Positions 5,580-9,137 are shown, counted from the stretch's first letter. The stretch: 12,556 nt of DNA from Deinococcus radiodurans R1 = ATCC 13939 = DSM 20539 (GCF_000008565.1 NC_001263.1:1263250-1275805); one strand, 5' to 3'. Numbers and translations: made by a program. Notes: generated by a model from the letters alone, not told the origin.

Positions 5580-7175
5580 TCAAACCTCGCCCCGCGCAAA
5601 AGCCGTCATCACGTTCGGCGCCGCCGCGTCGAAGCCCACCACGTCGAGCATGTCCCGGCGCTGCGGGTCCGCGATGCTGAATTCGGTGGCGGTCAGGCCG
5701 ACGACGATCAGCTTGGGTGCCCGGCCCATCTTCTGCGCGTACTGGTCGAGGGCTACCGTCGGGTGAACCTGACCAGCCCACGTTTCGTTGTCGGTGTAGA
5801 CGACGAAGGTGTCCACGTCCAGCCGTTCCTGAGCCGCCCACAGTATCGGCTGGGCGCAGTCGGTGCCGCCGAAGCTCATGGACTGCGCCTTTTGCATGGC
5901 GCTTTCCAGCGTGTCGCGCGGCGTGATGCCGAGGGGCCGAAACTGCTCGGCAAAGCCCATCGTCAGCGCGTCGGGCTCAGTGCGCAGGGCAATCAGGCTC
6001 ATCGCGGCGGCGGCCATGTTGGGGGTCAGGCCAGGGACGCCCGCCACGTCACCACAGGTCATGCTGCCCGACACGTCGAGCGCCAGCAGGTGCCGGGTGT
6101 TCGCCGGCTGCACGTTGCCGAAAGCGAGGGTAAACGCCTCTTCCAGCGCGTCCACCACGCGCGGCACCGGCAGCCAGGTGCCCTTGCCGCGCACGCCCTG
6201 GCCCTGCGCGTAGACCAGGCGGGCCTTGAGCGCGTCGAGCGGGTGGATGCGGCCCCGCTTGAGCGCGGCGGGGTCGGTCAGACGCTCTATGACGGCCTGC
6301 ACGGTGGCGCTGTCGTTGGGCGTCAGCACCCCCACCCGGCCCAGGTTGCCGAGGTTGCGCAGCAGCCAGGTTAGGCCGTTGGTCTGCATGGCGGCGCGGT
6401 ACACCTCGGCCCCGCGAACGTGTGTCGGTACGGCTTCCAGCGGGAGGCGGTACTCCTGCATCAGCGCGGCGGCTGCGGCGTCGGTCTGCGCTTCCGTCGC
6501 CTTGAGGTGGCCTTCGATGACACGCAGGGCGGGGGAGTCCACTTTGGGCAGCACGCCGTCCACCATGAACTTCAGCACCGCGTTGCGGGCCGCGTCGTCG
6601 GTCTTGGGGTGGGCCTTACGCAGCGCGTCGGCCTGGGACCAGCCGTCGCGGGCCTTGTACTTCACGGCCCACAGCGCCAGCTTGTCCACGTCCGCCGTTT
6701 CGTACACGTTCGCCACGCCCCGGCGCGTCAGGCGGCCCCAGCCCCCGAGCGCGTCGGCAAAGGCCAGAAAGTGCAGCAGCATCGTGCCGGTGCGGGCGAC
6801 CTCAGGCAGCGCGTCCCAGGCGGCCTTGCGGTCCGCCGCGTTCGGCGCGGTCTTGGCAATCAGCGCCAGCACCAGCAGCGCGGGGTCGGCCTTCGGCGCC
6901 CGCTGGCCGCGCACCACGTCCAGCGTGACGCGCAGGGCGAGGGCCGCGTCACGCTGTACCAGCTCGCGCACGAAGTCGGTGGCCTGCACGGTGTGTTTCT
7001 GCGCGGAGGCGTAGAAGGTGCCGCCGTCCACGCCCAGCACCAGAAACCGGGTCAGGCGAGACTCGTCGCTGACGGTGTACACGAAGCCGCCCGCGTTGTT
7101 CCTGACCTGGCGCTCGTCGAGGCGCTCGGTCTGGGGGCGGTTCAGGGGGTTGATGGCACGGAGCAAGTTCTTCAT
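5580..7175 (-). CDS. rsr: Rsr, bacterial ortholog of the Ro60 (TROVE domain + vWA domain) RNA-binding ring protein, 531 aa
   Basis: The sequence MKNLLRAINPLNRPQTERLDERQVRNNAGGFVYTVSDESRLTRFLVLG is typical of a Ro60/TROVE N-terminus. The C-terminal vWA domain has the MIDAS motif DVSGSM. I chose the ATG at 7175 because AAGGAGGG (minus strand, 7182-7189) sits 6 nt upstream. The 38-codon extension to 7289 in the track has no RBS and overlaps structured leader RNA. Confidence 0.95.
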   Translation of the reverse strand: MKNLLRAINPLNRPQTERLDERQVRNNAGGFVYTVSDESRLTRFLVLGVDGGTFYASAQKHTVQATDFVRELVQRDAALALRVTLDVVRGQRAPKADPALLVLALIAKTAPNAADRKAAWDALPEVARTGTMLLHFLAFADALGGWGRLTRRGVANVYETADVDKLALWAVKYKARDGWSQADALRKAHPKTDDAARNAVLKFMVDGVLPKVDSPALRVIEGHLKATEAQTDAAAAALMQEYRLPLEAVPTHVRGAEVYRAAMQTNGLTWLLRNLGNLGRVGVLTPNDSATVQAVIERLTDPAALKRGRIHPLDALKARLVYAQGQGVRGKGTWLPVPRVVDALEEAFTLAFGNVQPANTRHLLALDVSGSMTCGDVAGVPGLTPNMAAAAMSLIALRTEPDALTMGFAEQFRPLGITPRDTLESAMQKAQSMSFGGTDCAQPILWAAQERLDVDTFVVYTDNETWAGQVHPTVALDQYAQKMGRAPKLIVVGLTATEFSIADPQRRDMLDVVGFDAAAPNVMTAFARGEV

Positions 7176-7333
7176 GGTCGGCCCTCCTTGTCGTGGGCGA
7201 TGTGATTCAATTCGAGCGGATGTGAGTAGGGGGAATGGGTTCCGGACGTAAAGTCGGCAAACCGGTGGTGTTCGGGTGGGCTGACGCAACAGACGGAACC
7301 CGTGGATGACGCTCGCGGCGTCTAGTGGGACGG

Positions 7334-7440
7334 GTGGGACTCAAACCCCACCCTCGGCATTCGGCTTACGGAGGTGAGGAGCGCAAGGGGCCGTTTGACG
7401 TACTCTGTACGCTGAGCTTTCGTTCCAGAACGTGCCGAGA
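7334..7440 (-). ncRNA. Decayed Y/tRNA-like module (module A) in the NADAR-rsr spacer
   Basis: The minus-strand RNA contains CCCCUUGCG..CGUAAGCCGAAUGCCGAGGGU. This parallels chimera C (GGGCCGAACGCCGAGGGU). It is followed by a T-arm-like hairpin GUGGG-GUUUGAGU-CCCAC (7351-7334), which is one nt longer than a canonical T-loop. A closing helix pairs CUCGGCA (7439-7433) with UGCCGAG (7359-7353). There is no intact basal Ro helix and no acceptor stem. Confidence 0.35.
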
Positions 7441-7459: not shown

Positions 7460-7939
7460 TTACTCGTCGCGCAACCGCTCGCGCACCTGCATCAGTGCCT
7501 GTCCCAGCAGGTTCTCGCCCCACTGGTCGCGGTGTTCCCAGGCGTCCTGTTCGCTGTAGCCGATGCCCCAGATGCGGTCATTGGGTGCGGCCTCGACTAG
7601 AATCAACTCTCCGGTGTCCAACAAAAACTCGCGGAGTCTGCGGCTGCTGCGAAACTTGTGCCACGCGGCGTCGAAGGCCACTTGCCCGCGCACCTGCGCC
7701 CAGTGGCTTTCGCTGAAGCCCTGCACCCGGCGTCCGAGCGCCTTGCATTCGGCGGGCGTGCGCGCCTGCAAAATGGCCTTGGCGCTGGCGTGGTCGCCGA
7801 ATTCCTCGGCCTTGCGGTGCATGATGTACTGCTCGGCGGTGTGAAATTGCCGCCCACTGGCGCTGAACGGCGACGGATGAAAATTGGAGAACGGATGCGC
7901 CGTGCGGTAGAAAAACAGGTATTCGGTTTTCTGTGTCAT
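7460..7939 (-). CDS. NADAR domain protein (YbiA/DUF1768 family), 159 aa
   Basis: Family hallmarks run along the whole length: FFYRTAHPFSNFHPSPF, FHTAEQYIMHRKA, TPAECKALGR, LLDTGELILVEAAPNDRIWGIG and GENLLGQALMQVRERL. The ATG at 7939 is preceded by GAGGAG 7 nt upstream. The 93-codon N-terminal extension of track ORF 7460..8218 runs through chimera B and is rejected. Confidence 0.85.
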   Translation of the reverse strand: MTQKTEYLFFYRTAHPFSNFHPSPFSASGRQFHTAEQYIMHRKAEEFGDHASAKAILQARTPAECKALGRRVQGFSESHWAQVRGQVAFDAAWHKFRSSRRLREFLLDTGELILVEAAPNDRIWGIGYSEQDAWEHRDQWGENLLGQALMQVRERLRDE

Positions 7940-7980
7940 GGCGCTGCGCTCCTCGAATCTGGATTTATGGGAAGCAAAAA

Positions 7981-8126
7981 GGGGTGGGGACAGGCGGGAT
8001 TCGAACCCGCGAAGTCTTGCGACGAATGGAAATAACCCTGACCTGTCGGCCCAATCTGGGCAAGGGGGCGGCAGGGAAACGCCCTGACGGGCACATTTGC
8101 GTTCGGCCAGCTCCGCCACTGTCCCC
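7981..8126 (-). ncRNA. Y/tRNA chimera B: a class II tRNA-Leu-like scaffold whose anticodon loop is replaced by a ~64 nt insert carrying a hairpin-capped Ro-binding-type helix
   Basis: Minus-strand RNA. Acceptor: GGGGACAG (8126-8119) pairs with CUGUCCCC (7993-7986). D-arm: UGGCGGAGCUGGCCGAACGC, close to the bacterial tRNA-Leu sequence UGGCGGAAUUGGUAGACGC. An AAUG/CAUU stem sits at the anticodon-stem position. Variable arm: GUC-GCAA-GAC. Canonical T-arm: GCGGG-UUCGAAU-CCCGC (8010-7994). Insert core, 8066-8031: CCCUU-GCCCA-GAU-UGGGC-CGACAGGUCAGGGUUAUUU. The 3' tail is ACCCCUUUUU, with no CCA. Confidence 0.6.
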
Positions 8127-8145
8127 ATGTTGTGTGTCGTCCTCA

Positions 8146-8275
8146 TCGCGGGGCGGGACTTGCACCCGCATCTTCCACGTGACAGGTAACCCTCGGCGTT
8201 CGGCCCGCAGCCGGGCAAGGGATTGCCCAGGGAAAGGCTTTCGCCTTGGATATTTTGCTCTTAAACTACCCGCGT
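8146..8275 (-). ncRNA. Y/tRNA chimera C: a tRNA-Gly-like 5' half and T-arm with a Ro-binding-type helix in the variable-arm position
   Basis: Acceptor: ACGCGGG (8275-8269) pairs with CCCGCGA (8152-8146), giving 6 bp plus an A-A mismatch. It has U8-A9 and a D-arm GUUU-AAGAGCA-AAAU containing A14. Stem-loop: AAGGC-GAAA-GCCUU. Core, 8221-8186: CCCUU-GCCCG-GCUG-CGGGC-CGAACGCCGAGGGUUAC. T-arm: GCGGG-UGCAAGU-CCCGC (8169-8153). No CCA. Confidence 0.55.
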
Positions 8276-8282
8276 GCAGGAC

Positions 8283-8367
8283 TGGTGGATGGGGTCAGAT
8301 TCGAACTGACTCAGCTTGAGCGTCCGGTTTACAGCCGGGTGCGACTCTCCCGCGTCGCCGCCCATCC
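8283..8367 (-). tRNA. Class II tRNA-Tyr(GUA)-like gene with encoded CCA and a non-canonical D region; either a functional tRNA or a tRNA mimic
   Basis: RNA sequence: GGAUGGG CG GCGAC-GCGGGAGA-GUCGC A CCCGG-CUGUAAA-CCGGA, then a long variable arm (CUCA-AGC-UGAG), then GUCAG-UUCGAAU-CUGAC CCCAUCC A CCA. The acceptor is a perfect 7 bp. The anticodon loop is CUGUAAA, with the anticodon at 8332-8330. Deviations from a canonical tRNA: C at position 8, no A14, a 5 bp D-stem, and a C-A mismatch at the base of the anticodon stem. Confidence 0.6.
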
Positions 8368-8404
8368 TCGTGTCCGGGTTTAGAGTCGCCGGACGCGACT
8401 GGGG

Positions 8405-8500
8405 TGGGGTGGGCGCCTGGAATCGAACCAAGTTTCGCCAAATAACCCTTACGCTTCGGCCCAGCTGGGCAAGGCATGGCAAGGGATCGAAAGCGCCCAC
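8405..8500 (-). ncRNA. Y/tRNA chimera D: acceptor stem, T-arm and CCA framing a hairpin-capped Ro-binding-type helix, with no D-arm
   Basis: Acceptor: GUGGGCG (8500-8494) pairs with CGCCCAC (8415-8409), followed by C and then CCA (8407-8405). T-arm: CUUGG-UUCGAUU-CCAGG. Stem UUGCCA/UGGCGA encloses the core at 8474-8441: CCUU-GCCC-AGCU-GGGC-CGAAGCGUAAGGGUUAUU. Confidence 0.6.
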
Positions 8501-8579
8501 CACGTGAAACTCCGAGCCAGCGTTGAACTGACACGGACACAGCTCTGTGCCGTGTTTCTCTGCGTCTTGGACCGGAGGG

Positions 8580-8654
8580 TGGAGCAGGTTCACCGGAATT
8601 GCACCGGGGTCTCCCGACGGTTGCCGGGCATCTTGCTGACTAGAAGAAACCTGC
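8580..8654 (-). ncRNA. Degenerate 75-nt tRNA-like module (tL2) with encoded CCA
   Basis: Acceptor: GCAGGUU (8654-8648) pairs with AACCUGC (8590-8584), then U and CCA (8582-8580). D-like arm: UCUU-CUAGUCAGC-AAGA, with no GG. The anticodon-position hairpin is CCCG-GCAACCGU-CGGG, with an 8-nt loop. T-like arm: CCGG-UGCAAUU-CCGG. It is not a plausible decoding tRNA. Confidence 0.45.
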
Positions 8655-8659
8655 ATAGT

Positions 8660-8782
8660 GCTCTGGACAAGGGTTCGGGTCACGGACGGGCCACTTCATG
8701 CCGGGAATCGAACCCGGAACGGCTTGCACCGCTTCCGCCCATTGAGGTTGGAGAAGTAACCGTGACCACTTCGGCCCAGAGC
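8660..8782 (-). ncRNA. Y RNA (YB) with an ends-paired Ro-binding helix and an internal tRNA-like cloverleaf; a candidate for the tRNA-like Y RNA class (Yrn1/YrlA-type)
   Basis: Basal helix: GCUCUGGGC (8782-8774), bulged C8773, then GAAG, paired to CCCUU-GUCCAGAGC (8668-8660). That gives 9 bp with one G-U. Second helix: GGUCACGG (8767-8760) pairs with CCGUGACC (8685-8678). Inner 7 bp helix: UUACUUC/GAAGUGG. D-like loop: AAUGGG. Short hairpin: GCGG-UGCAAG-CCGU. Canonical T-arm: CCGGG-UUCGAUU-CCCGG (8717-8701). Confidence 0.8.
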
Positions 8783-8788
8783 CAAATC

Positions 8789-8863
8789 TGGCGGTCCCAG
8801 CGGGACTCGAACCCGCGTCCTCCCGCAGACAACGGGGCATCCTGGCCGCTGGACGATGAAACC
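8789..8863 (-). tRNA. 75-nt tRNA-like gene with a GUC anticodon loop, a Glu/Asp-type D-arm and encoded CCA; either a functional tRNA or a mimic
   Basis: RNA sequence: GGUUUCA U C GUCC-AGCGGCCA-GGAU G CCCCG-UUGUCUG-CGGGA GGAC GCGGG-UUCGAGU-CCCGC UGGGACC G CCA. The acceptor is 7 bp with two G-U pairs. Canonical U8, A14 and GG are present. The anticodon GUC is at 8830-8828. Deviations: U at position 37, U32 and G38 in the loop, and a C27-A43 mismatch. Confidence 0.6.
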
Positions 8864-8874
8864 GTAAGAGGGCG

Positions 8875-8959
8875 AAAAGGGGAAGGGCTGGGCAAGGGAT
8901 GAACCTGGAATGTTTTGTTCTACTGGGAAAGTAAATAATCCAGATTCTTCGGCCCAGCC
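8875..8959 (-). ncRNA. Y RNA (YA), a simple stem-loop type with a metazoan-like Ro-binding basal helix
   Basis: The 5' strand GGCUGGGC-C-GAAGAAUCUGGAUUAUUUAC (from 8959) compares with human Y1 GGCUGGUC-C-GAAGGUAGUGAGUUAUCUC. The 3' strand CCCUU-GCCCAGCC (8893-8886) compares with CACUU-GACUAGUC. The basal helix is 8 bp with a bulged C. The middle helix GAAUCUGGA/UCCAGGUUC is 9 bp with one G-U. Apical hairpin: UUUACU-UUCCC-AGUAGA. The 3' tail is CUUCCCCUUUU. Confidence 0.8.
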
Positions 8960-9137
8960 GGGCTTGTGGCGAGGCGAGTGCGCTCACCTGGCACAGAGAT
9001 TACCAAGCGGGAGCGGCGGCGTACACTCGCCATCTGGCGCAGATTGGGGGTAGGCCAAACGGCGGAGGGGGTCTTCCCGGAAGCGCAGGTCATCCTGTTT
9101 CAAGCCGGGGAGCTTCAAACAATGGTATGGAACAGCC

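What the first reader, a model, noticed from the sequence alone, without database searches (positions are those of the whole stretch)
7981..8959. Head-to-tail array of eight structured-RNA modules (2 Y RNAs, 3 tRNA look-alikes, 3 Y/tRNA chimeras) leading into NADAR-rsr
On the minus strand between the GNAT gene and the NADAR start codon, nearly every nucleotide belongs to a module closed by a 7-9 bp terminal helix. The modules are YA 8959-8886, tL1 8863-8789, YB 8782-8660, tL2 8654-8580, chimera D 8500-8405, tL3 8367-8283, chimera C 8275-8146 and chimera B 8126-7981. Spacers are 5-7 nt (tL1/YB, YB/tL2, tL3/C), 19-22 nt, or 37-79 nt. The long spacers contain hairpins, for example 8555-8531. Seven modules carry a T-arm with a 7-nt loop (UUCGAAU, UUCGAUU, UUCGAGU, UGCAAGU or UGCAAUU). 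Four end in an encoded CCA. The ORFs the track draws across this 1 kb (7460..8218 extension, 8261..8683, 8640..8987 and others) have no RBS and read through these helices. The layout suggests a polycistronic precursor. In that model the tRNA-shaped units would direct RNase P / RNase Z-type cleavage to release the Y RNAs, as in tRNA punctuation. One transcript would then carry up to five Ro-binding-type helices. Y RNAs next to rsr are established in Deinococcus. I cannot tell from memory whether the full array and its chimeras have been described.
Basis: partly seen in the sequence, partly recalled or inferred. Interest (0 to 1): 0.85.

Follow-up and report, generated by a model that had tools for sequence, protein, structure and literature searches.

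The report
Array of tRNA-shaped Y RNAs
The 1 kb in front of the Deinococcus radiodurans Ro60 gene (rsr) encodes a back-to-back series of small RNAs: two classic Y RNAs, several tRNA look-alikes and three tRNA bodies that carry the Ro60-binding helix as a capped arm. Some of these RNAs were detected on gels years ago, but I found no description of this tRNA-with-a-Ro-arm design in the papers I could read.

Summary
The window is D. radiodurans: both published Northern probes match it exactly. All eight modules exist at the stated coordinates. YA is Yrn2 and YB is Yrn1, which scores 163 bits against Rfam RF01053. tL1 is the published tRNA-Asp. The 79-nt "spacer" is a decayed ninth module. A tenth, decayed module lies between NADAR and rsr.

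Eighteen Deinococcales rsr loci keep the same module order. Every family shows compensatory base changes. The three chimeras are tRNA bodies: one tRNA-His-like, one type I, one class II. Each carries the Y-RNA Ro60-binding module (CCUUGCCC-cap-GGGCCGA...GGGUUAY) as a capped arm at or beside the anticodon arm. A covariance model of that arm found 49 copies, all upstream of rsr and on its strand. The chimeras are therefore the unpermuted counterpart of the circularly permuted tRNA mimic YrlA.

Already published (Chen 2000, 2014): Yrn1, Yrn2, the Yrn2-tRNAAsp-Yrn1 precursor, and UV-induced RNAs a, b and d. I found no description of the Ro-arm architecture, the tL2/tL3/Leu* families, the genus-wide array, or the link between rsr and large tRNA arrays.

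RNase P/Z processing and Rsr binding to the capped helices are inferred, not shown.

The parts
8886..8959 (-). YA = Yrn2 (RNA e): an open Y RNA. Its Ro-binding helix is formed by the termini (GGCUGGGCCGAAG / CCCUUGCCCAGCC).
   Evidence: Rfam Y_RNA 27.6 bits, E=0.006. The Yrn2 probe of Chen 2014 matches 8910-8938. MFE z-score -4.9. Orthologues occur in 14 loci.
8789..8863 (-). tL1 = tRNA-Asp(GUC) variant. It has the anticodon loop UUGUCUG (U37, G38) and an encoded GCCA end.
   Evidence: Rfam tRNA 43.8 bits; ARAGORN tRNA-Asp. 12 of 20 pairs are compensatory in 11 orthologues. U37 is found in 10/10 Deinococcales and 9/12 distant array Asp genes. Chen 2014 calls it tRNAAsp.
8657..8782 (-). YB = Yrn1 (RNA c): an open Y RNA with an internal T arm.
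   Evidence: RF01053 163.4 bits. Yrn1 probe match at 8727-8751. MFE z-score -3.4.
8580..8654 (-). tL2: a tRNA-shaped RNA. It has a 5-bp 'anticodon' stem with a conserved 6-nt loop CAACCG (8628-8613), a T loop UGCAAUU (G55), a D loop without GG, and a UCCA end.
   Evidence: 14-member family including the deep Deinococcales loci L011 and L013. The RNAalifold cloverleaf has 12 of 20 pairs compensatory. No Rfam or ARAGORN call.
8505..8578 (-). Decayed ninth module: a remnant of the type-I 'Leu*(CAG/UAG)' tRNA-like family. G1 is lost, the anticodon arm is replaced by the hairpin 8554-8532, the T loop is UUCAACG and the 3' end is UUCA.
   Evidence: End-to-end alignment with 9 orthologues that occupy the same position in other loci.
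8405..8501 (-). chD: short chimera. It has a tRNA-His-type acceptor (G-1:C73, GGUGGGCG...CGCCCACC, then CCA), a UUUCG/CGAAA stem, a capped Ro arm (8485-8442) and a T arm (8432-8416). There is no D arm.
   Evidence: R1 45.1 bits. Six-member family; RNAalifold predicts acceptor, stem 2, Ro core and T arm. Weak tRNA-Sec-like hit.
8283..8367 (-). tL3: tRNA-Tyr(GUA)-like RNA with C8 instead of U8, a long variable arm and an ACCA end.
   Evidence: ARAGORN calls it. No Rfam tRNA hit even at E<10. 15 of 24 pairs compensatory in 8 orthologues. C8 in 5 of 7 Deinococcales copies.
8146..8275 (-). chC: type-I chimera. It has a 6-bp acceptor, a degenerate D arm, an extra hairpin, a capped Ro arm (8232-8186), a residual CUGUCAC loop and a T arm with loop UGCAAGU (8169-8153). 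There is no CCA.
   Evidence: R1 46.5 bits. R2 77.1 bits. It aligns with 22 type-I chimeras.
7986..8125 (-). chB: class-II chimera. It has a 7-bp acceptor GGGACAG/CUGUCCC, a tRNA-Leu-like D arm, a retained anticodon stem (AAUG/CAUU) whose loop is replaced by a small hairpin plus the capped Ro arm (8076-8032), a variable-arm hairpin GUCGCAAGAC and a T arm.
   Evidence: R1 48.5 bits. R2 72 bits. An orthologue at L012 4565-4712 scores 44.8 bits as Rfam tRNA with a large insertion. RNAalifold on 6 members.
7463..7939 (-). NADAR-domain gene lying between the array and rsr.
   Evidence: Pfam PF08719 176.6 bits. Found at the same position only in L003 and L012.
7323..7390 (-). Decayed chimera copy, with a broken Ro helix (CCCCUUGCGC...AAGCCGAAUGCCGAGGGU) and a T-arm-like hairpin with loop GUUUGAGU.
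   Evidence: Direct reading: 15 of 16 identity to the Ro5+stem-2 segment of chC. Not detected by R1 at E<1.
5583..7175 (-). rsr (Ro60 orthologue). The longest ORF starts at 7289, but homologues align only from about residue 39.
   Evidence: Pfam TROVE and vWA_Ro60. tblastn ranges.

Best explanation
This is the non-coding RNA operon that precedes rsr in Deinococcus radiodurans. It is a reduced version of an rsr-linked tRNA array.

Contents. Nine modules lie head to tail on the rsr strand.
- Two are conventional Y RNAs (Yrn2, Yrn1), whose Ro60/Rsr-binding helix is formed by their 5' and 3' ends.
- Four are tRNA-shaped RNAs of array-specific families: an Asp variant with U37, tL2 with a 6-nt loop and a GUGC T loop, a decayed Leu*-like copy, and a Tyr-like RNA with C8.
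- Three are tRNA bodies in which the same Rsr-binding module sits as a capped arm. That module is stem 1 (UUGCCC / GGG-C-CGA with the bulged C), an internal loop, stem 2 and GGGUUAY. It sits in place of the anticodon arm or loop (chD, chB) or beside a short anticodon-like hairpin (type I, chC).

The chimeras are therefore Y RNAs whose effector module is an unpermuted tRNA, with an open acceptor stem and (in chD) an encoded CCA end. YrlA is the circularly permuted version of the same design.

Proposed mechanism.
- Shown for Yrn2-tRNAAsp-Yrn1 by published Northern blots; inferred for the rest: the array is made as one or more multi-module precursors after UV or other stress.
- Inferred from the 12-bp acceptor/T-stem stacks, the 5-7-nt spacers and the encoded CCA ends: the tRNA-shaped units are cut out by the tRNA end-processing machinery (RNase P at the 5' ends; RNase Z or exonucleases plus the CCA enzyme at the 3' ends). 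This also sets the ends of the neighbouring Y RNAs.
- Shown for Yrn1/Yrn2 and, weakly, for RNAs a, b and d in the literature; inferred for the capped helices: Rsr binds each of the five conserved helices.
- Inferred: the tRNA bodies give nuclease-resistant ends and/or present Rsr (and through it PNPase) to proteins that handle tRNA.
For: Identity of the locus.
- RF01053 scores 163 bits.
- Both published probes match exactly.
- NADAR and rsr have clear Pfam matches.

Literature (Chen 2014).
- Yrn2 is made as a polycistronic precursor with tRNAAsp and Yrn1.
- Yrn1 and Yrn2 need Rsr for stability and are UV-induced.
- RNAs a, b and d are encoded upstream of rsr, are UV-induced and bind Rsr weakly. 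RNAs a and b have T arms, and the T arm of a lacks U55.

Conservation.
- The module order Y2-Asp*-Y1-(Gly*)-tL2-Leu*-short chimera-Tyr*-chimeras-(tRNAs)-rsr recurs in 16 other Deinococcus loci.

Ro arm.
- 40 of 41 chimeras share [CCYUY]-~7 nt-UUGCCC-cap(3-37 nt)-GGGCCGA-4-5 nt-[RARGG]-UUAY.
- Model R1 found 49 hits at E<0.008 in 230 kb searched on both strands, all upstream of rsr and on its strand.
- 88.9% of cells pair against 83.2% in shuffles (0/500). There are 44 double-change cells against 17 (0/500). Slid controls give 27-63%.
- The Ro helix changes C-G to U-A in L011 and L013.

tRNA bodies.
- De novo RNAalifold recovers acceptor, D, Ro core and T arm, with compensatory changes in 11 of 20 pairs for type I, 6 of 23 for the short type and 11 of 31 for class II.
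- Rfam's tRNA model hits ten such modules full-length with 50-100-nt insertions.
- Bodies resemble the neighbouring tRNA-Arg(ACG), tRNA-His (G-1:C73) and class II tRNAs.

tRNA-like families.
- Cloverleaf structures have 12/20, 12/20 and 15/24 compensatory pairs.

Transcription.
- No terminator-like site lies on the array strand.

Unpermuted chimeras outside Deinococcales.
- L027 scores 84.7 bits and L049 80.8 bits with R2.
Against: - No transcript ends, cleavage sites or Rsr binding were measured here. I could not map the published RNAs a, b and d onto chB, chC, chD, tL2 or tL3, because Chen 2000 and the supplement of Chen 2014 are not held.
- Chen 2014 reports that RNAs a, b and d bind Rsr less strongly and do not look like Y RNAs. 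The authors detected no RNase P cleavage of Yrn1.
- chC has only a 6-bp acceptor, a damaged D arm and no CCA. chB has no encoded CCA.
- Folding energies of most modules are not better than shuffles.
- Stem 2 is purine/pyrimidine-biased, so non-cognate strands also pair well: 4.7 against 5.5 of 6.
- No promoter was identified. A separate promoter for rsr or for parts of the array is not excluded.
Confidence: 0.72

Rival explanations
1. The tRNA-shaped units (tL1, tL3, perhaps tL2) are working tRNAs, either spare or housekeeping. On this view the locus is simply a small tRNA gene cluster into which Y RNA genes are interleaved. The tRNAs would serve translation, for example as stress-induced back-up tRNAs like the long tRNA arrays of cyanobacteria, and would not act only as processing signals or mimics.
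For: - tL1 passes Rfam's tRNA threshold (43.8 against 29 bits). It keeps GUC, G73 and CCA.
- Chen 2014 treats it as tRNAAsp.
- tL3 keeps the anticodon loop CUGUAAA, A73, a long variable arm and CCA.
- Relatives carry up to 25 canonical-looking tRNAs (50-73 bits) in the same arrays.
- Santamaria-Gomez 2021 show that an L-array is induced under translational stress together with rtcB.
Against: - U37 in the Asp variant, C8 in Tyr*, and the 6-nt loop plus G55 in tL2 break near-universal tRNA features.
- tL3 gets no Rfam tRNA hit even at E<10.
- The Asp loop UUGUCUG is shared by rsr-linked arrays of distant phyla (9/12), which points to an array-specific lineage rather than each host's own tRNA-Asp.
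- Array tRNA families diverge fast between species: 71-81% mean identity.
- This rival does not explain the chimeras.
Confidence: 0.3
2. The tRNA-like RNAs and chimeras are decoys or nuclease-resistant substitutes. Their altered or missing anticodon loops would make them immune to damage-induced anticodon nucleases. They would then either titrate such nucleases or replace cleaved tRNAs, while Rsr/PNPase clears the fragments.
For: - Anticodon loops are exactly what is altered: U37/G38 in Asp*, a 6-nt loop in tL2, a Ro arm in the chimeras.
- Hughes 2020 propose that YrlA's tRNA-like domain, which the anticodon nuclease does not cut, could inhibit it, and show tRNA cleavage after DNA damage.
- Related islands carry RtcB ligases.
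- The deep Deinococcales arrays open with His-Tyr-Asn-Asp, the four GUN-anticodon tRNAs.
- From my own knowledge, not checked here: phage tRNAs with anticodon-loop mutations that escape host nucleases are a published precedent.
Against: - No anticodon nuclease is known or was looked for in D. radiodurans.
- There is no RtcB in this window.
- The idea is purely circumstantial.
- Most array tRNAs in relatives have normal loops: purine 37 in 515 of 537.
Confidence: 0.15
3. Most of the array is evolutionary debris: decaying pseudogenes of an ancestral tRNA array, with only Yrn1 and Yrn2 functional.
For: - Two modules are clearly decayed (8578-8505 and 7390-7323).
- chC has a damaged D arm and acceptor.
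- D. radiodurans lacks the canonical-looking terminal tRNAs of its relatives.
- RNAs a, b and d bind Rsr only weakly.
Against: - tL2, Asp*, Tyr* and all three chimera types keep their helices through compensatory changes across species whose Rsr is only 56-86% identical.
- The Ro-arm sequence is nearly invariant in 49 copies.
- Small RNAs from this region accumulate after UV.
Confidence: 0.06
4. The region encodes proteins (ORFs 7460-8218, 8261-8683, 8640-8987).
For: Open reading frames of 115-252 codons exist, as expected by chance in 60-65% G+C DNA.
Against: - No Pfam match for 8264-8683 or 8643-8987.
- The NADAR homology starts at the ATG at 7939.
- The substitution pattern is that of paired RNA helices.
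- Rfam and ARAGORN call RNA genes here.
Confidence: 0.01

Closest known systems
Deinococcus radiodurans Y RNAs Yrn1 and Yrn2 with tRNAAsp (Chen et al. 2000; Chen et al. 2014, PMC4201824; Rfam RF01053)
   Same: This is the same locus. YB is Yrn1 and YA is Yrn2, shown by exact probe matches and the 163-bit hit. tL1 is the tRNAAsp of the published polycistronic precursor. The chimeras carry the same Rsr-binding sequence, GGGCCGAAG / CCCUUGCCC / GGUUAY.
   Different: In the chimeras the two strands come in the opposite order and are joined by a cap, and the RNA ends lie in a tRNA acceptor stem. Chen 2014 describe RNAs a, b and d as lacking the terminal Ro stem and as unlike Y RNAs. tL2, tL3 and the Leu* remnant are not mentioned in the text I could read.
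YrlA (Y RNA-like A), the tRNA-mimicking Y RNA of Salmonella, Mycobacterium and more than 250 species (Chen 2014; Wang 2018 bioRxiv 10.1101/312249)
   Same: Both have two modules: a Ro60-binding helix with GNCGA(A) on the 5' strand, plus a tRNA-like domain with T and D arms. Both are encoded on the rsr strand within a few kb and often occur in several copies. I saw tandem YrlA-type units next to rsr in distant metagenome loci.
   Different: YrlA is a circularly permuted tRNA. Its ends lie in the Ro stem, its acceptor stem is closed by a loop, and it has no free CCA. The Deinococcus chimeras are unpermuted: open 7-8-bp acceptor, discriminator, CCA encoded in chD, and a capped Ro helix. [quoted passage not shown]
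[quoted passage not shown] 2021, PMC8421152)
   Same: Related loci hold 11-25 same-strand tRNA genes next to rsr. One distant island also holds two RtcB genes and an HNH endonuclease. These recall the homing endonuclease and the rtcB co-regulation described for the Anabaena array.
   Different: The D. radiodurans window has only two ARAGORN-callable tRNAs. That paper does not mention Ro60, Rsr or Y RNA. In their survey, Deinococcus-Thermus fell among the phyla with short accretion arrays only.
tRNA punctuation, or tRNA-guided release of neighbouring RNAs from a polycistronic precursor (mitochondrial transcripts, bacterial rRNA-tRNA operons; my own knowledge)
   Same: tRNA-shaped units are separated from neighbours by 5-22 nt, so RNase P or RNase Z cuts would define the neighbours' ends. 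A precursor containing tRNAAsp between two Y RNAs is documented.
   Different: Here the tRNA-shaped units are themselves conserved specialised RNAs, and three of them carry the protein-binding site. They are not just spacers.

Membership tests
Y RNA (Ro60/Rsr-bound ncRNA) | Conserved bulged helix with a GGUCCGA-like 5' strand (bacterial GNCGAA) pairing with a UUGAC/UUGCC 3' strand | tested here: met
   All five helices have GGGCCGA opposite UUG(C/U)CC. R1 hits for chB, chC and chD score 45-48 bits. The helix is 95% paired in 49 copies.
Y RNA (Ro60/Rsr-bound ncRNA) | [quoted passage not shown] | tested here: not met
   Met for YA and YB.
Y RNA (Ro60/Rsr-bound ncRNA) | Physical association with Ro60/Rsr and dependence on it for stability | not testable with these tools
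   Published for Yrn1 and Yrn2. RNAs a, b and d bind 'less strongly'. Their mapping onto the chimeras is unresolved.
Y RNA (Ro60/Rsr-bound ncRNA) | Encoded next to the Ro60 gene on the same strand | tested here: met
   All modules lie 0.7-1.7 kb upstream of rsr on its strand. All 49 R1 hits are likewise placed.
YrlA | tRNA-like domain with conserved T arm and D arm | tested here: inconclusive
   chB has both. chC has a T arm (with G55) and a degenerate D arm. chD has a T arm only.
YrlA | Permuted topology: termini in the Ro stem, acceptor-like stem closed by a loop, no free CCA | tested here: not met
   The acceptor stems are open and covary between the module's 5' and 3' ends. chD ends in CCA. 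The 3' acceptor strand of chC and the 5' acceptor strand of chB are not complementary (direct reading).
tRNA (RF00005) | Scores at or above the Rfam gathering threshold, or is called by ARAGORN | tested here: inconclusive
   tL1 meets both (43.8 bits). tL3 is called by ARAGORN only. tL2 meets neither. The window's chimeras are not hit, but ten orthologous chimeras are hit full-length with insertions.
tRNA (RF00005) | 7-nt anticodon loop with U33 and purine 37; U8; G18-G19; T54-Psi55-C56 | tested here: not met
   tL1 has U37 (11 of 11 family members). tL2 has a 6-nt loop CAACCG, G55 and no GG in the D loop. tL3 has C8.
tRNA (RF00005) | Aminoacylation and use in translation | not testable with these tools
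   Not tested. Whether D. radiodurans has other Asp or Tyr tRNA genes could not be checked, because no whole-genome access was available.
Long tRNA array (L-array) | Ten or more co-oriented, closely spaced tRNA genes, supernumerary to the housekeeping set | tested here: not met
   The window has 2 ARAGORN tRNAs. The feature is met in the relatives L008 (11), L015 (14), L011 (23) and L013 (25), and in many distant rsr contigs. Supernumerary status was not tested.

The most novel reading that the evidence does not exclude
rsr sits in an ancient, horizontally spread RNA-repair island built around a tRNA array, often together with RtcB. Within such arrays, tRNA genes of several identities (His-, Arg- and class-II-like) have repeatedly been converted into Ro60-tethered tRNAs by grafting the Ro-binding helix onto the anticodon region.

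These unpermuted chimeras would be processed, CCA-tailed and perhaps even charged like tRNAs; chD keeps the tRNA-His G-1:C73 identity pair. They would thereby couple Rsr/PNPase to the tRNA-handling machinery, or act as damage-proof tRNA surrogates.

Because they occur in tandem, simple duplication and truncation across a junction would yield the permuted YrlA/Yrn1 topology. That would make the Deinococcus chimeras the ancestral form of bacterial tRNA-like Y RNAs.
Probability: 0.2. Interest if true: 0.8.

Novelty: new variant of a known kind. Interest (0 to 1): 0.6.

Why it matters
Why bacterial Y RNAs mimic tRNA is an open question. The known mimic, YrlA, is a permuted tRNA without a free CCA end. 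That has made it hard to say which tRNA-binding factors it could engage.

The Deinococcus chimeras put the same Ro60-binding module on ordinary tRNA bodies with open acceptor stems. Some of these bodies keep identity elements. This makes direct tests possible in an organism where Rsr genetics, RYPER biochemistry and UV induction are already established. The tests are RNase P cleavage, CCA addition, charging and EF-Tu binding.

It would also:
- reinterpret the long-unexplained RNAs a, b and d;
- link Rsr to tRNA arrays and RtcB islands across phyla;
- offer a simple evolutionary route, through tandem arrays, between unpermuted and permuted tRNA-like Y RNAs.

The core of the locus, however, is already known.

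Tried and rejected
- Thermodynamics as evidence. MFE z-scores are significant only for YA (-4.9) and YB (-3.4). The tRNA-like modules are indistinguishable from shuffles, so I relied on comparative data instead.
- Promoter, terminator and RDRM search. No sigma-70-like promoter was found. There is no terminator on the array strand. Matches to the radiation/desiccation response motif do not exceed chance (6 found, 7.5 expected). The one 1-mismatch site, at 7298-7282, has no counterpart in 17 other loci.
- Viral origin. A viral-contig scan with Rsr found no relative.
- First MAFFT alignments of the Ro arm (A1, A3) mis-registered stem 2 because the internal loop varies in length. This was resolved by building model R1 and realigning.
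- My first guess that tL2 is a tRNA-Gly(GCC) with a collapsed anticodon loop was wrong. Its true orthologues form a separate family with a conserved 6-nt loop, and the Gly*(GCC) RNAs are a sister family absent from the window.
- R2 hits of 40-55 bits in other phyla looked like more unpermuted chimeras. On reading, they are tandem permuted YrlA units matched in a shifted register. Only L027 and L049 are genuine.
- Literature. Chen 2000, Chen 2007, Chen 2013, Sim & Wolin 2018, Boccitto & Wolin 2019 and Sim 2020 are not held. The supplement of Chen 2014 is not held either. As a result, the mapping of RNAs a, b and d, and any later description of the chimeras, could not be checked.
- Protein-coding reading of the overlapping ORFs was rejected.

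Full report
WHAT THE WINDOW IS

The minus strand of 5.5-10 kb reads GNAT acetyltransferase (9944-9141), a 1-kb non-coding stretch, a NADAR-domain gene (ATG at 7939, ending at 7463; Pfam 176.6 bits), and rsr (TROVE plus Ro60 vWA domains).

Rfam's Deinococcus_Y_RNA model matches 8782-8657 at 163.4 bits. The tRNA model matches 8863-8792 at 43.8 bits. ARAGORN calls tRNA-Asp(GUC) at 8863-8789 and tRNA-Tyr(GUA) at 8367-8283.

The two Northern probes published for D. radiodurans Yrn1 and Yrn2 (Chen et al. 2014, PMC4201824) occur exactly at 8727-8751 and 8910-8938. The window is therefore D. radiodurans or a near-identical strain. YB is Yrn1, YA is Yrn2, and tL1 is the 'tRNAAsp' of that paper.

WHAT WAS ALREADY KNOWN

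Chen 2014 report four small RNAs a-d (c = Yrn1), encoded upstream of rsr and induced by UV (citing Chen 2000), plus a fifth, e = Yrn2. They also report that:
- Yrn2 is made as a polycistronic precursor with tRNAAsp and Yrn1;
- Yrn1 and Yrn2 depend on Rsr;
- unlike Yrn2, they lack the terminal stem with the Ro-binding sequence;
- a and b have T arms, and that of a lacks the U of Psi55.

I could not read Chen 2000, the supplement of Chen 2014, or the 2018-2020 reviews. I therefore cannot say which modules are a, b and d.

Modules whose T loop lacks U55 are tL2 (UGCAAUU) and chC (UGCAAGU). RNA a is probably one of these. That is an inference.

Full-text searches returned no paper that describes a Ro-binding helix inside a tRNA body in Deinococcus, or that links tRNA arrays with Ro60.

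CHECK OF THE OBSERVATION

Seven T arms with 7-nt loops, four encoded CCA ends and the spacer lengths are confirmed by reading the sequence.

Folding energy alone is weak evidence. Only YA (z = -4.9), YB (-3.4) and marginally chB (-2.0) beat dinucleotide shuffles.

The ORFs across the region have no Pfam match. No terminator-like site lies on the array strand and no sigma-70-like promoter was found.

COMPARATIVE EVIDENCE

A genome-contig scan with Rsr gave 17 Deinococcus/Deinococcales loci with Rsr 56-86% identical. A metagenome scan added one more Deinococcus locus and one more Deinococcales locus, plus about 78 from other phyla.

In the Deinococcus loci the same modules recur in the same order on the rsr strand. 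The order is: Yrn2-like, Asp*, Yrn1-like, (Gly*), tL2 family, Leu*, short chimera, Tyr*, 2-4 further chimeras, a block of canonical-looking tRNAs (His, Arg-ACG and others), then rsr.

The window fits this order exactly. It lacks the terminal tRNAs and has NADAR inserted, as do L003 and L012.

The 79-nt 'spacer' 8579-8501 aligns end to end with the Leu* family and is a decayed copy. A further decayed chimera lies at 7390-7323.

THE tRNA LOOK-ALIKES

RNAalifold recovers a cloverleaf de novo for each family, with compensatory changes:
- 12 of 20 pairs for Asp*;
- 12 of 20 pairs for the tL2 family;
- 15 of 24 pairs for Tyr*.

Each family departs from near-universal tRNA features.
- Asp* has the loop UUGUCUG, with U37 in 11 of 11 members.
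- tL2 has a 5-bp stem with a conserved 6-nt loop CAACCG, a T loop UGCAAnU (GUGC in place of GTPsiC) and no GG in the D loop. These features hold from D. radiodurans to the deep-branching L011 and L013.
- Tyr* has C8.

Across 537 ARAGORN tRNAs from all rsr-linked arrays, position 37 is a purine in 515. The pyrimidine cases are almost all tRNA-Asp. The same UUGUCUG loop occurs in 9 of 12 Asp genes of arrays from distant phyla. tL1 therefore belongs to an array-specific tRNA-Asp lineage.

I could not test whether tL1 is also the cell's only tRNA-Asp gene.

THE CHIMERAS

I listed 41 tRNA-shaped modules of 92-175 nt by a T-arm plus acceptor search. Forty of them contain the same arm:
- a pyrimidine-rich strand (CCYUY);
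- about 7 nt;
- (C)UUGCCC;
- GGGCCGA;
- 4-5 nt;
- the complementary purine strand (RARGG);
- UUAY.

This is the Y-RNA Ro-binding module, with its two strands in hairpin order. The module comprises stem 1 with the bulged C, an internal loop, stem 2 and the GGGUUAY motif. It is seen in open form in Yrn2 (GGCUGGGCCGAAGAAUCUGGAUUAU...CCCUUGCCCAGCC) and in Yrn1.

A covariance model of the arm (R1) found 49 matches at E<0.008 in 230 kb searched on both strands. Every match lies upstream of rsr on its strand.

On that alignment:
- 88.9% of cells pair against 83.2% in shuffles (0 of 500 reach it);
- 44 cells change on both sides against 17 expected (0 of 500);
- sliding the partners drops pairing to 27-63%.

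In L011 and L013 the core pair changes from C-G to U-A (UUGCUC/GAGCCGA). Stem 2 is compositionally biased, so it is weaker evidence: 23 of 40 cognate arms pair 6 of 6, against 15% of non-cognate combinations.

THREE BODY PLANS

(i) Type I. This has a 7-bp acceptor, a D arm GCUCAGUGGUAGAGC, the Ro arm, then a short hairpin with a 7-nt CUNNNRA loop whose 'anticodon' varies freely, a variable loop, a T arm and often ACCA.
- RNAalifold finds acceptor, D, Ro core and T arm, with 11 of 20 pairs compensatory.
- Rfam's tRNA model hits ten of these full-length with a large insertion.
- The bodies are closest to the neighbouring tRNA-Arg(ACG) genes. One (L012 4854) still has the loop CUACGGA.
- chC is a degraded member (R2 77 bits).

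(ii) Class II. This has a tRNA-Leu-like D arm GUGGCGGAAnUGGUAnACGC and a variable-arm hairpin.
- The anticodon stem is retained and covaries (AAUGU/ACAUU, UAUGU/ACAUA, CAAGA/UCUUG). This is by direct reading.
- Its loop is replaced by a small hairpin plus the Ro arm.
- chB belongs here (R2 72 bits).

(iii) Short type. The ends are GGUGGGYG...CRCCCACCCCA, that is G-1:C73 plus CCA, which is the hallmark of bacterial tRNA-His (established knowledge). There is no D arm. A UUUCG/CGAAA stem carries the Ro arm where the anticodon arm would be, followed by a T arm. chD belongs here.

The alternative, permuted reading is excluded for the window, for three reasons:
- the caps are 4-6 nt;
- the acceptor strands covary within a module;
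- the 3' acceptor strand of chC and the 5' acceptor strand of chB are not complementary.

RELATION TO YrlA AND THE WIDER CONTEXT

YrlA is a permuted tRNA. Its termini lie in the Ro stem, its acceptor is closed by a loop, and it has no CCA (Chen 2014; Wang 2018).

In distant-phylum loci I found tandem YrlA-type units. Each reads Ro 5' strand, T arm, capped acceptor hairpin, D arm, Ro 3' strand (for example L050, L086, L040). R1 and R2 match these only across junctions or in a shifted register.

Two distant lineages have genuine unpermuted chimeras: L027 1359-1487 (84.7 bits) and L049 3563-3694 (80.8 bits). Both topologies therefore exist. In a tandem array one topology contains the other across each junction, which is a simple route to permutation. 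That is an inference.

rsr is also embedded in large same-strand tRNA arrays:
- 23 and 25 tRNAs in the deep Deinococcales L011 and L013;
- up to 22 in other phyla;
- two RtcB ligases and an HNH endonuclease in one island examined.

This recalls the L-arrays that are co-regulated with rtcB in Anabaena (Santamaria-Gomez 2021). That paper does not mention Ro60.

HOW IT MOST LIKELY WORKS

Shown in the literature:
- UV induction;
- a Yrn2-tRNAAsp-Yrn1 precursor;
- Rsr binding and stabilisation of Yrn1 and Yrn2;
- weak Rsr binding of three more RNAs from this region;
- Yrn1 tethering Rsr to PNPase.

Shown here:
- five copies of the Rsr-binding helix on one strand, three of them as capped arms of tRNA bodies;
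- conservation with covariation of all module types.

Inferred:
- The tRNA-shaped modules are excised by RNase P and 3'-end tRNA enzymes. Each offers a 12-bp acceptor/T stack, and spacers to neighbours are 5-22 nt.
- This excision sets the ends of Yrn1 and Yrn2.
- The excised chimeras bind Rsr through the arm, while the tRNA body gives protected ends and a surface for tRNA-binding partners.

Rivals:
- working back-up tRNAs, plausible for tL1 and tL3;
- nuclease decoys or damage-proof surrogates (compare Hughes 2020);
- evolutionary debris, true for two modules only.

NOVELTY AND SCORE

The locus, two Y RNAs, the tRNA-Asp, the precursor and the existence of further small RNAs are known.

I did not find the following in the papers I could read:
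- that three of the modules are tRNA bodies of different identity classes carrying the Ro-binding module in unpermuted topology;
- the tL2, Tyr* and Leu* families;
- the genus-wide conserved array;
- the array-specific tRNA-Asp loop shared across phyla;
- the rsr-tRNA-array-RtcB linkage.

I rate this a new variant of a known kind (tRNA-mimicking Y RNAs), with interest 0.6. A specialist would find the architecture informative and directly testable. It is not a new category, and key reviews could not be checked.

Noticed in passing
window 8578-8505 (-): The '79-nt spacer' is a decayed copy of a conserved 78-nt type-I tRNA-like family. ARAGORN calls members of this family tRNA-Leu CAG/UAG, although they lack a long variable arm. 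The family occupies this position in 9 other loci.
   Followed up: yes
window 7390-7323 (-): A decayed paralogue of chimera chC lies between NADAR and rsr. Its Ro helix is broken (CCC>CGC, GGG lost) and it has a T-arm-like hairpin with loop GUUUGAGU. In L012, intact tRNAs (His, Trp, Arg) lie between NADAR and rsr.
   Followed up: partly
window 7298-7282 and rsr start: The longest rsr ORF starts at TTG 7289, but homologues align only from about residue 39, so the likely start is near 7175. A 1-mismatch match to the radiation/desiccation response motif (TTCCGTCTGTTGCGTCA) sits at 7298-7282. Overall the motif is not enriched, and there is no counterpart in 17 other loci.
   Followed up: partly
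L011 750-5500, L013 600-5415, L090 650-4350: Deep-branching Deinococcales have 20-25 co-oriented tRNA genes directly upstream of the chimeras and rsr. In L011 and L013 the array opens with His-Tyr-Asn-Asp, the four GUN (queuosine-family) anticodons.
   Followed up: partly
L023, L025, L033, L040, L042, L053, L054, L057, L062, L080 and others: In metagenome contigs from other phyla (Rsr 35-48% identical), rsr is embedded in same-strand arrays of 15-22 tRNA genes. A recurring order is seen (...Phe-Thr-His/'SeC' - rsr - Cys ... Arg-Leu-Leu-Leu-Ile-Leu-Gln-Gln). The L054 island also encodes two RtcB ligases and an HNH endonuclease.
   Followed up: partly
tRNA-Asp genes of all rsr-linked arrays (e.g. 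window 8863-8789; L033 607; L042 441; L062 3764): Array-encoded tRNA-Asp carries the unusual anticodon loop UUGUCUG (U37, G38) in 10/10 Deinococcales and 9/12 distant-phylum arrays. Position 37 is a purine in nearly all other array tRNAs. This suggests a shared, array-specific Asp variant and common ancestry or transfer of the arrays.
   Followed up: partly
window 8654-8580; L012 4119-4193, L015 3726-3800, L014 4866-4941, L008 4300-4374: tL2 and its sister family Gly*(GCC) replace GTPsiC with GUGC in the T loop and lack G18-G19. From memory, not checked: the non-proteinogenic tRNA-Gly species used for staphylococcal cell-wall bridges have the same GUGC substitution, and Deinococcus peptidoglycan has a Gly-Gly bridge. 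The Gly*(GCC) gene is absent from the D. radiodurans window.
   Followed up: no
L050 60-330; L086 870-2200; L040 2860-3330: These are tandem repeats of permuted YrlA-type units: Ro 5' strand, T arm, capped acceptor hairpin, D arm, Ro 3' strand. They lie directly upstream of rsr, with Ro strands of adjacent units only 9-12 nt apart.
   Followed up: partly
L027 1359-1487; L049 3563-3694: Genuine unpermuted tRNA/Ro-arm chimeras occur outside Deinococcales (R2 84.7 and 80.8 bits). L027 keeps the anticodon stem CCUGU/ACAGG and replaces the loop. L049 lies just downstream of rsr.
   Followed up: partly
L040 2432-2507, L063 440-515, L054 4094-4167, L037 3641-3717, L085 4011-4086, L045 166-241: A conserved tRNA-like family (..CCCGUAGUUCAACUGCGAUAGAAC.CCCGGAU..) lies next to rsr in distant arrays. 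Its anticodon loops are aberrant: ARAGORN calls members tRNA-???, SeC(uca) or Stop(uua). It is not related to the tL2 family.
   Followed up: no
L003 5493-5945; L012 5029-5501: The NADAR gene lies between the RNA array and rsr in only two of the 17 other Deinococcales loci. In L012 it is split over two frames and may be a pseudogene.
   Followed up: partly
Array tRNA families His, Arg-ACG, Glu across L001-L017: Even the canonical-looking tRNAs next to rsr diverge strongly between Deinococcus species (mean pairwise identity 71-81%). Some have odd acceptor ends: Glu has G1.U72 and A73, and shares its acceptor with Leu*. This hints that the whole array is supernumerary rather than housekeeping.
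   Followed up: partly
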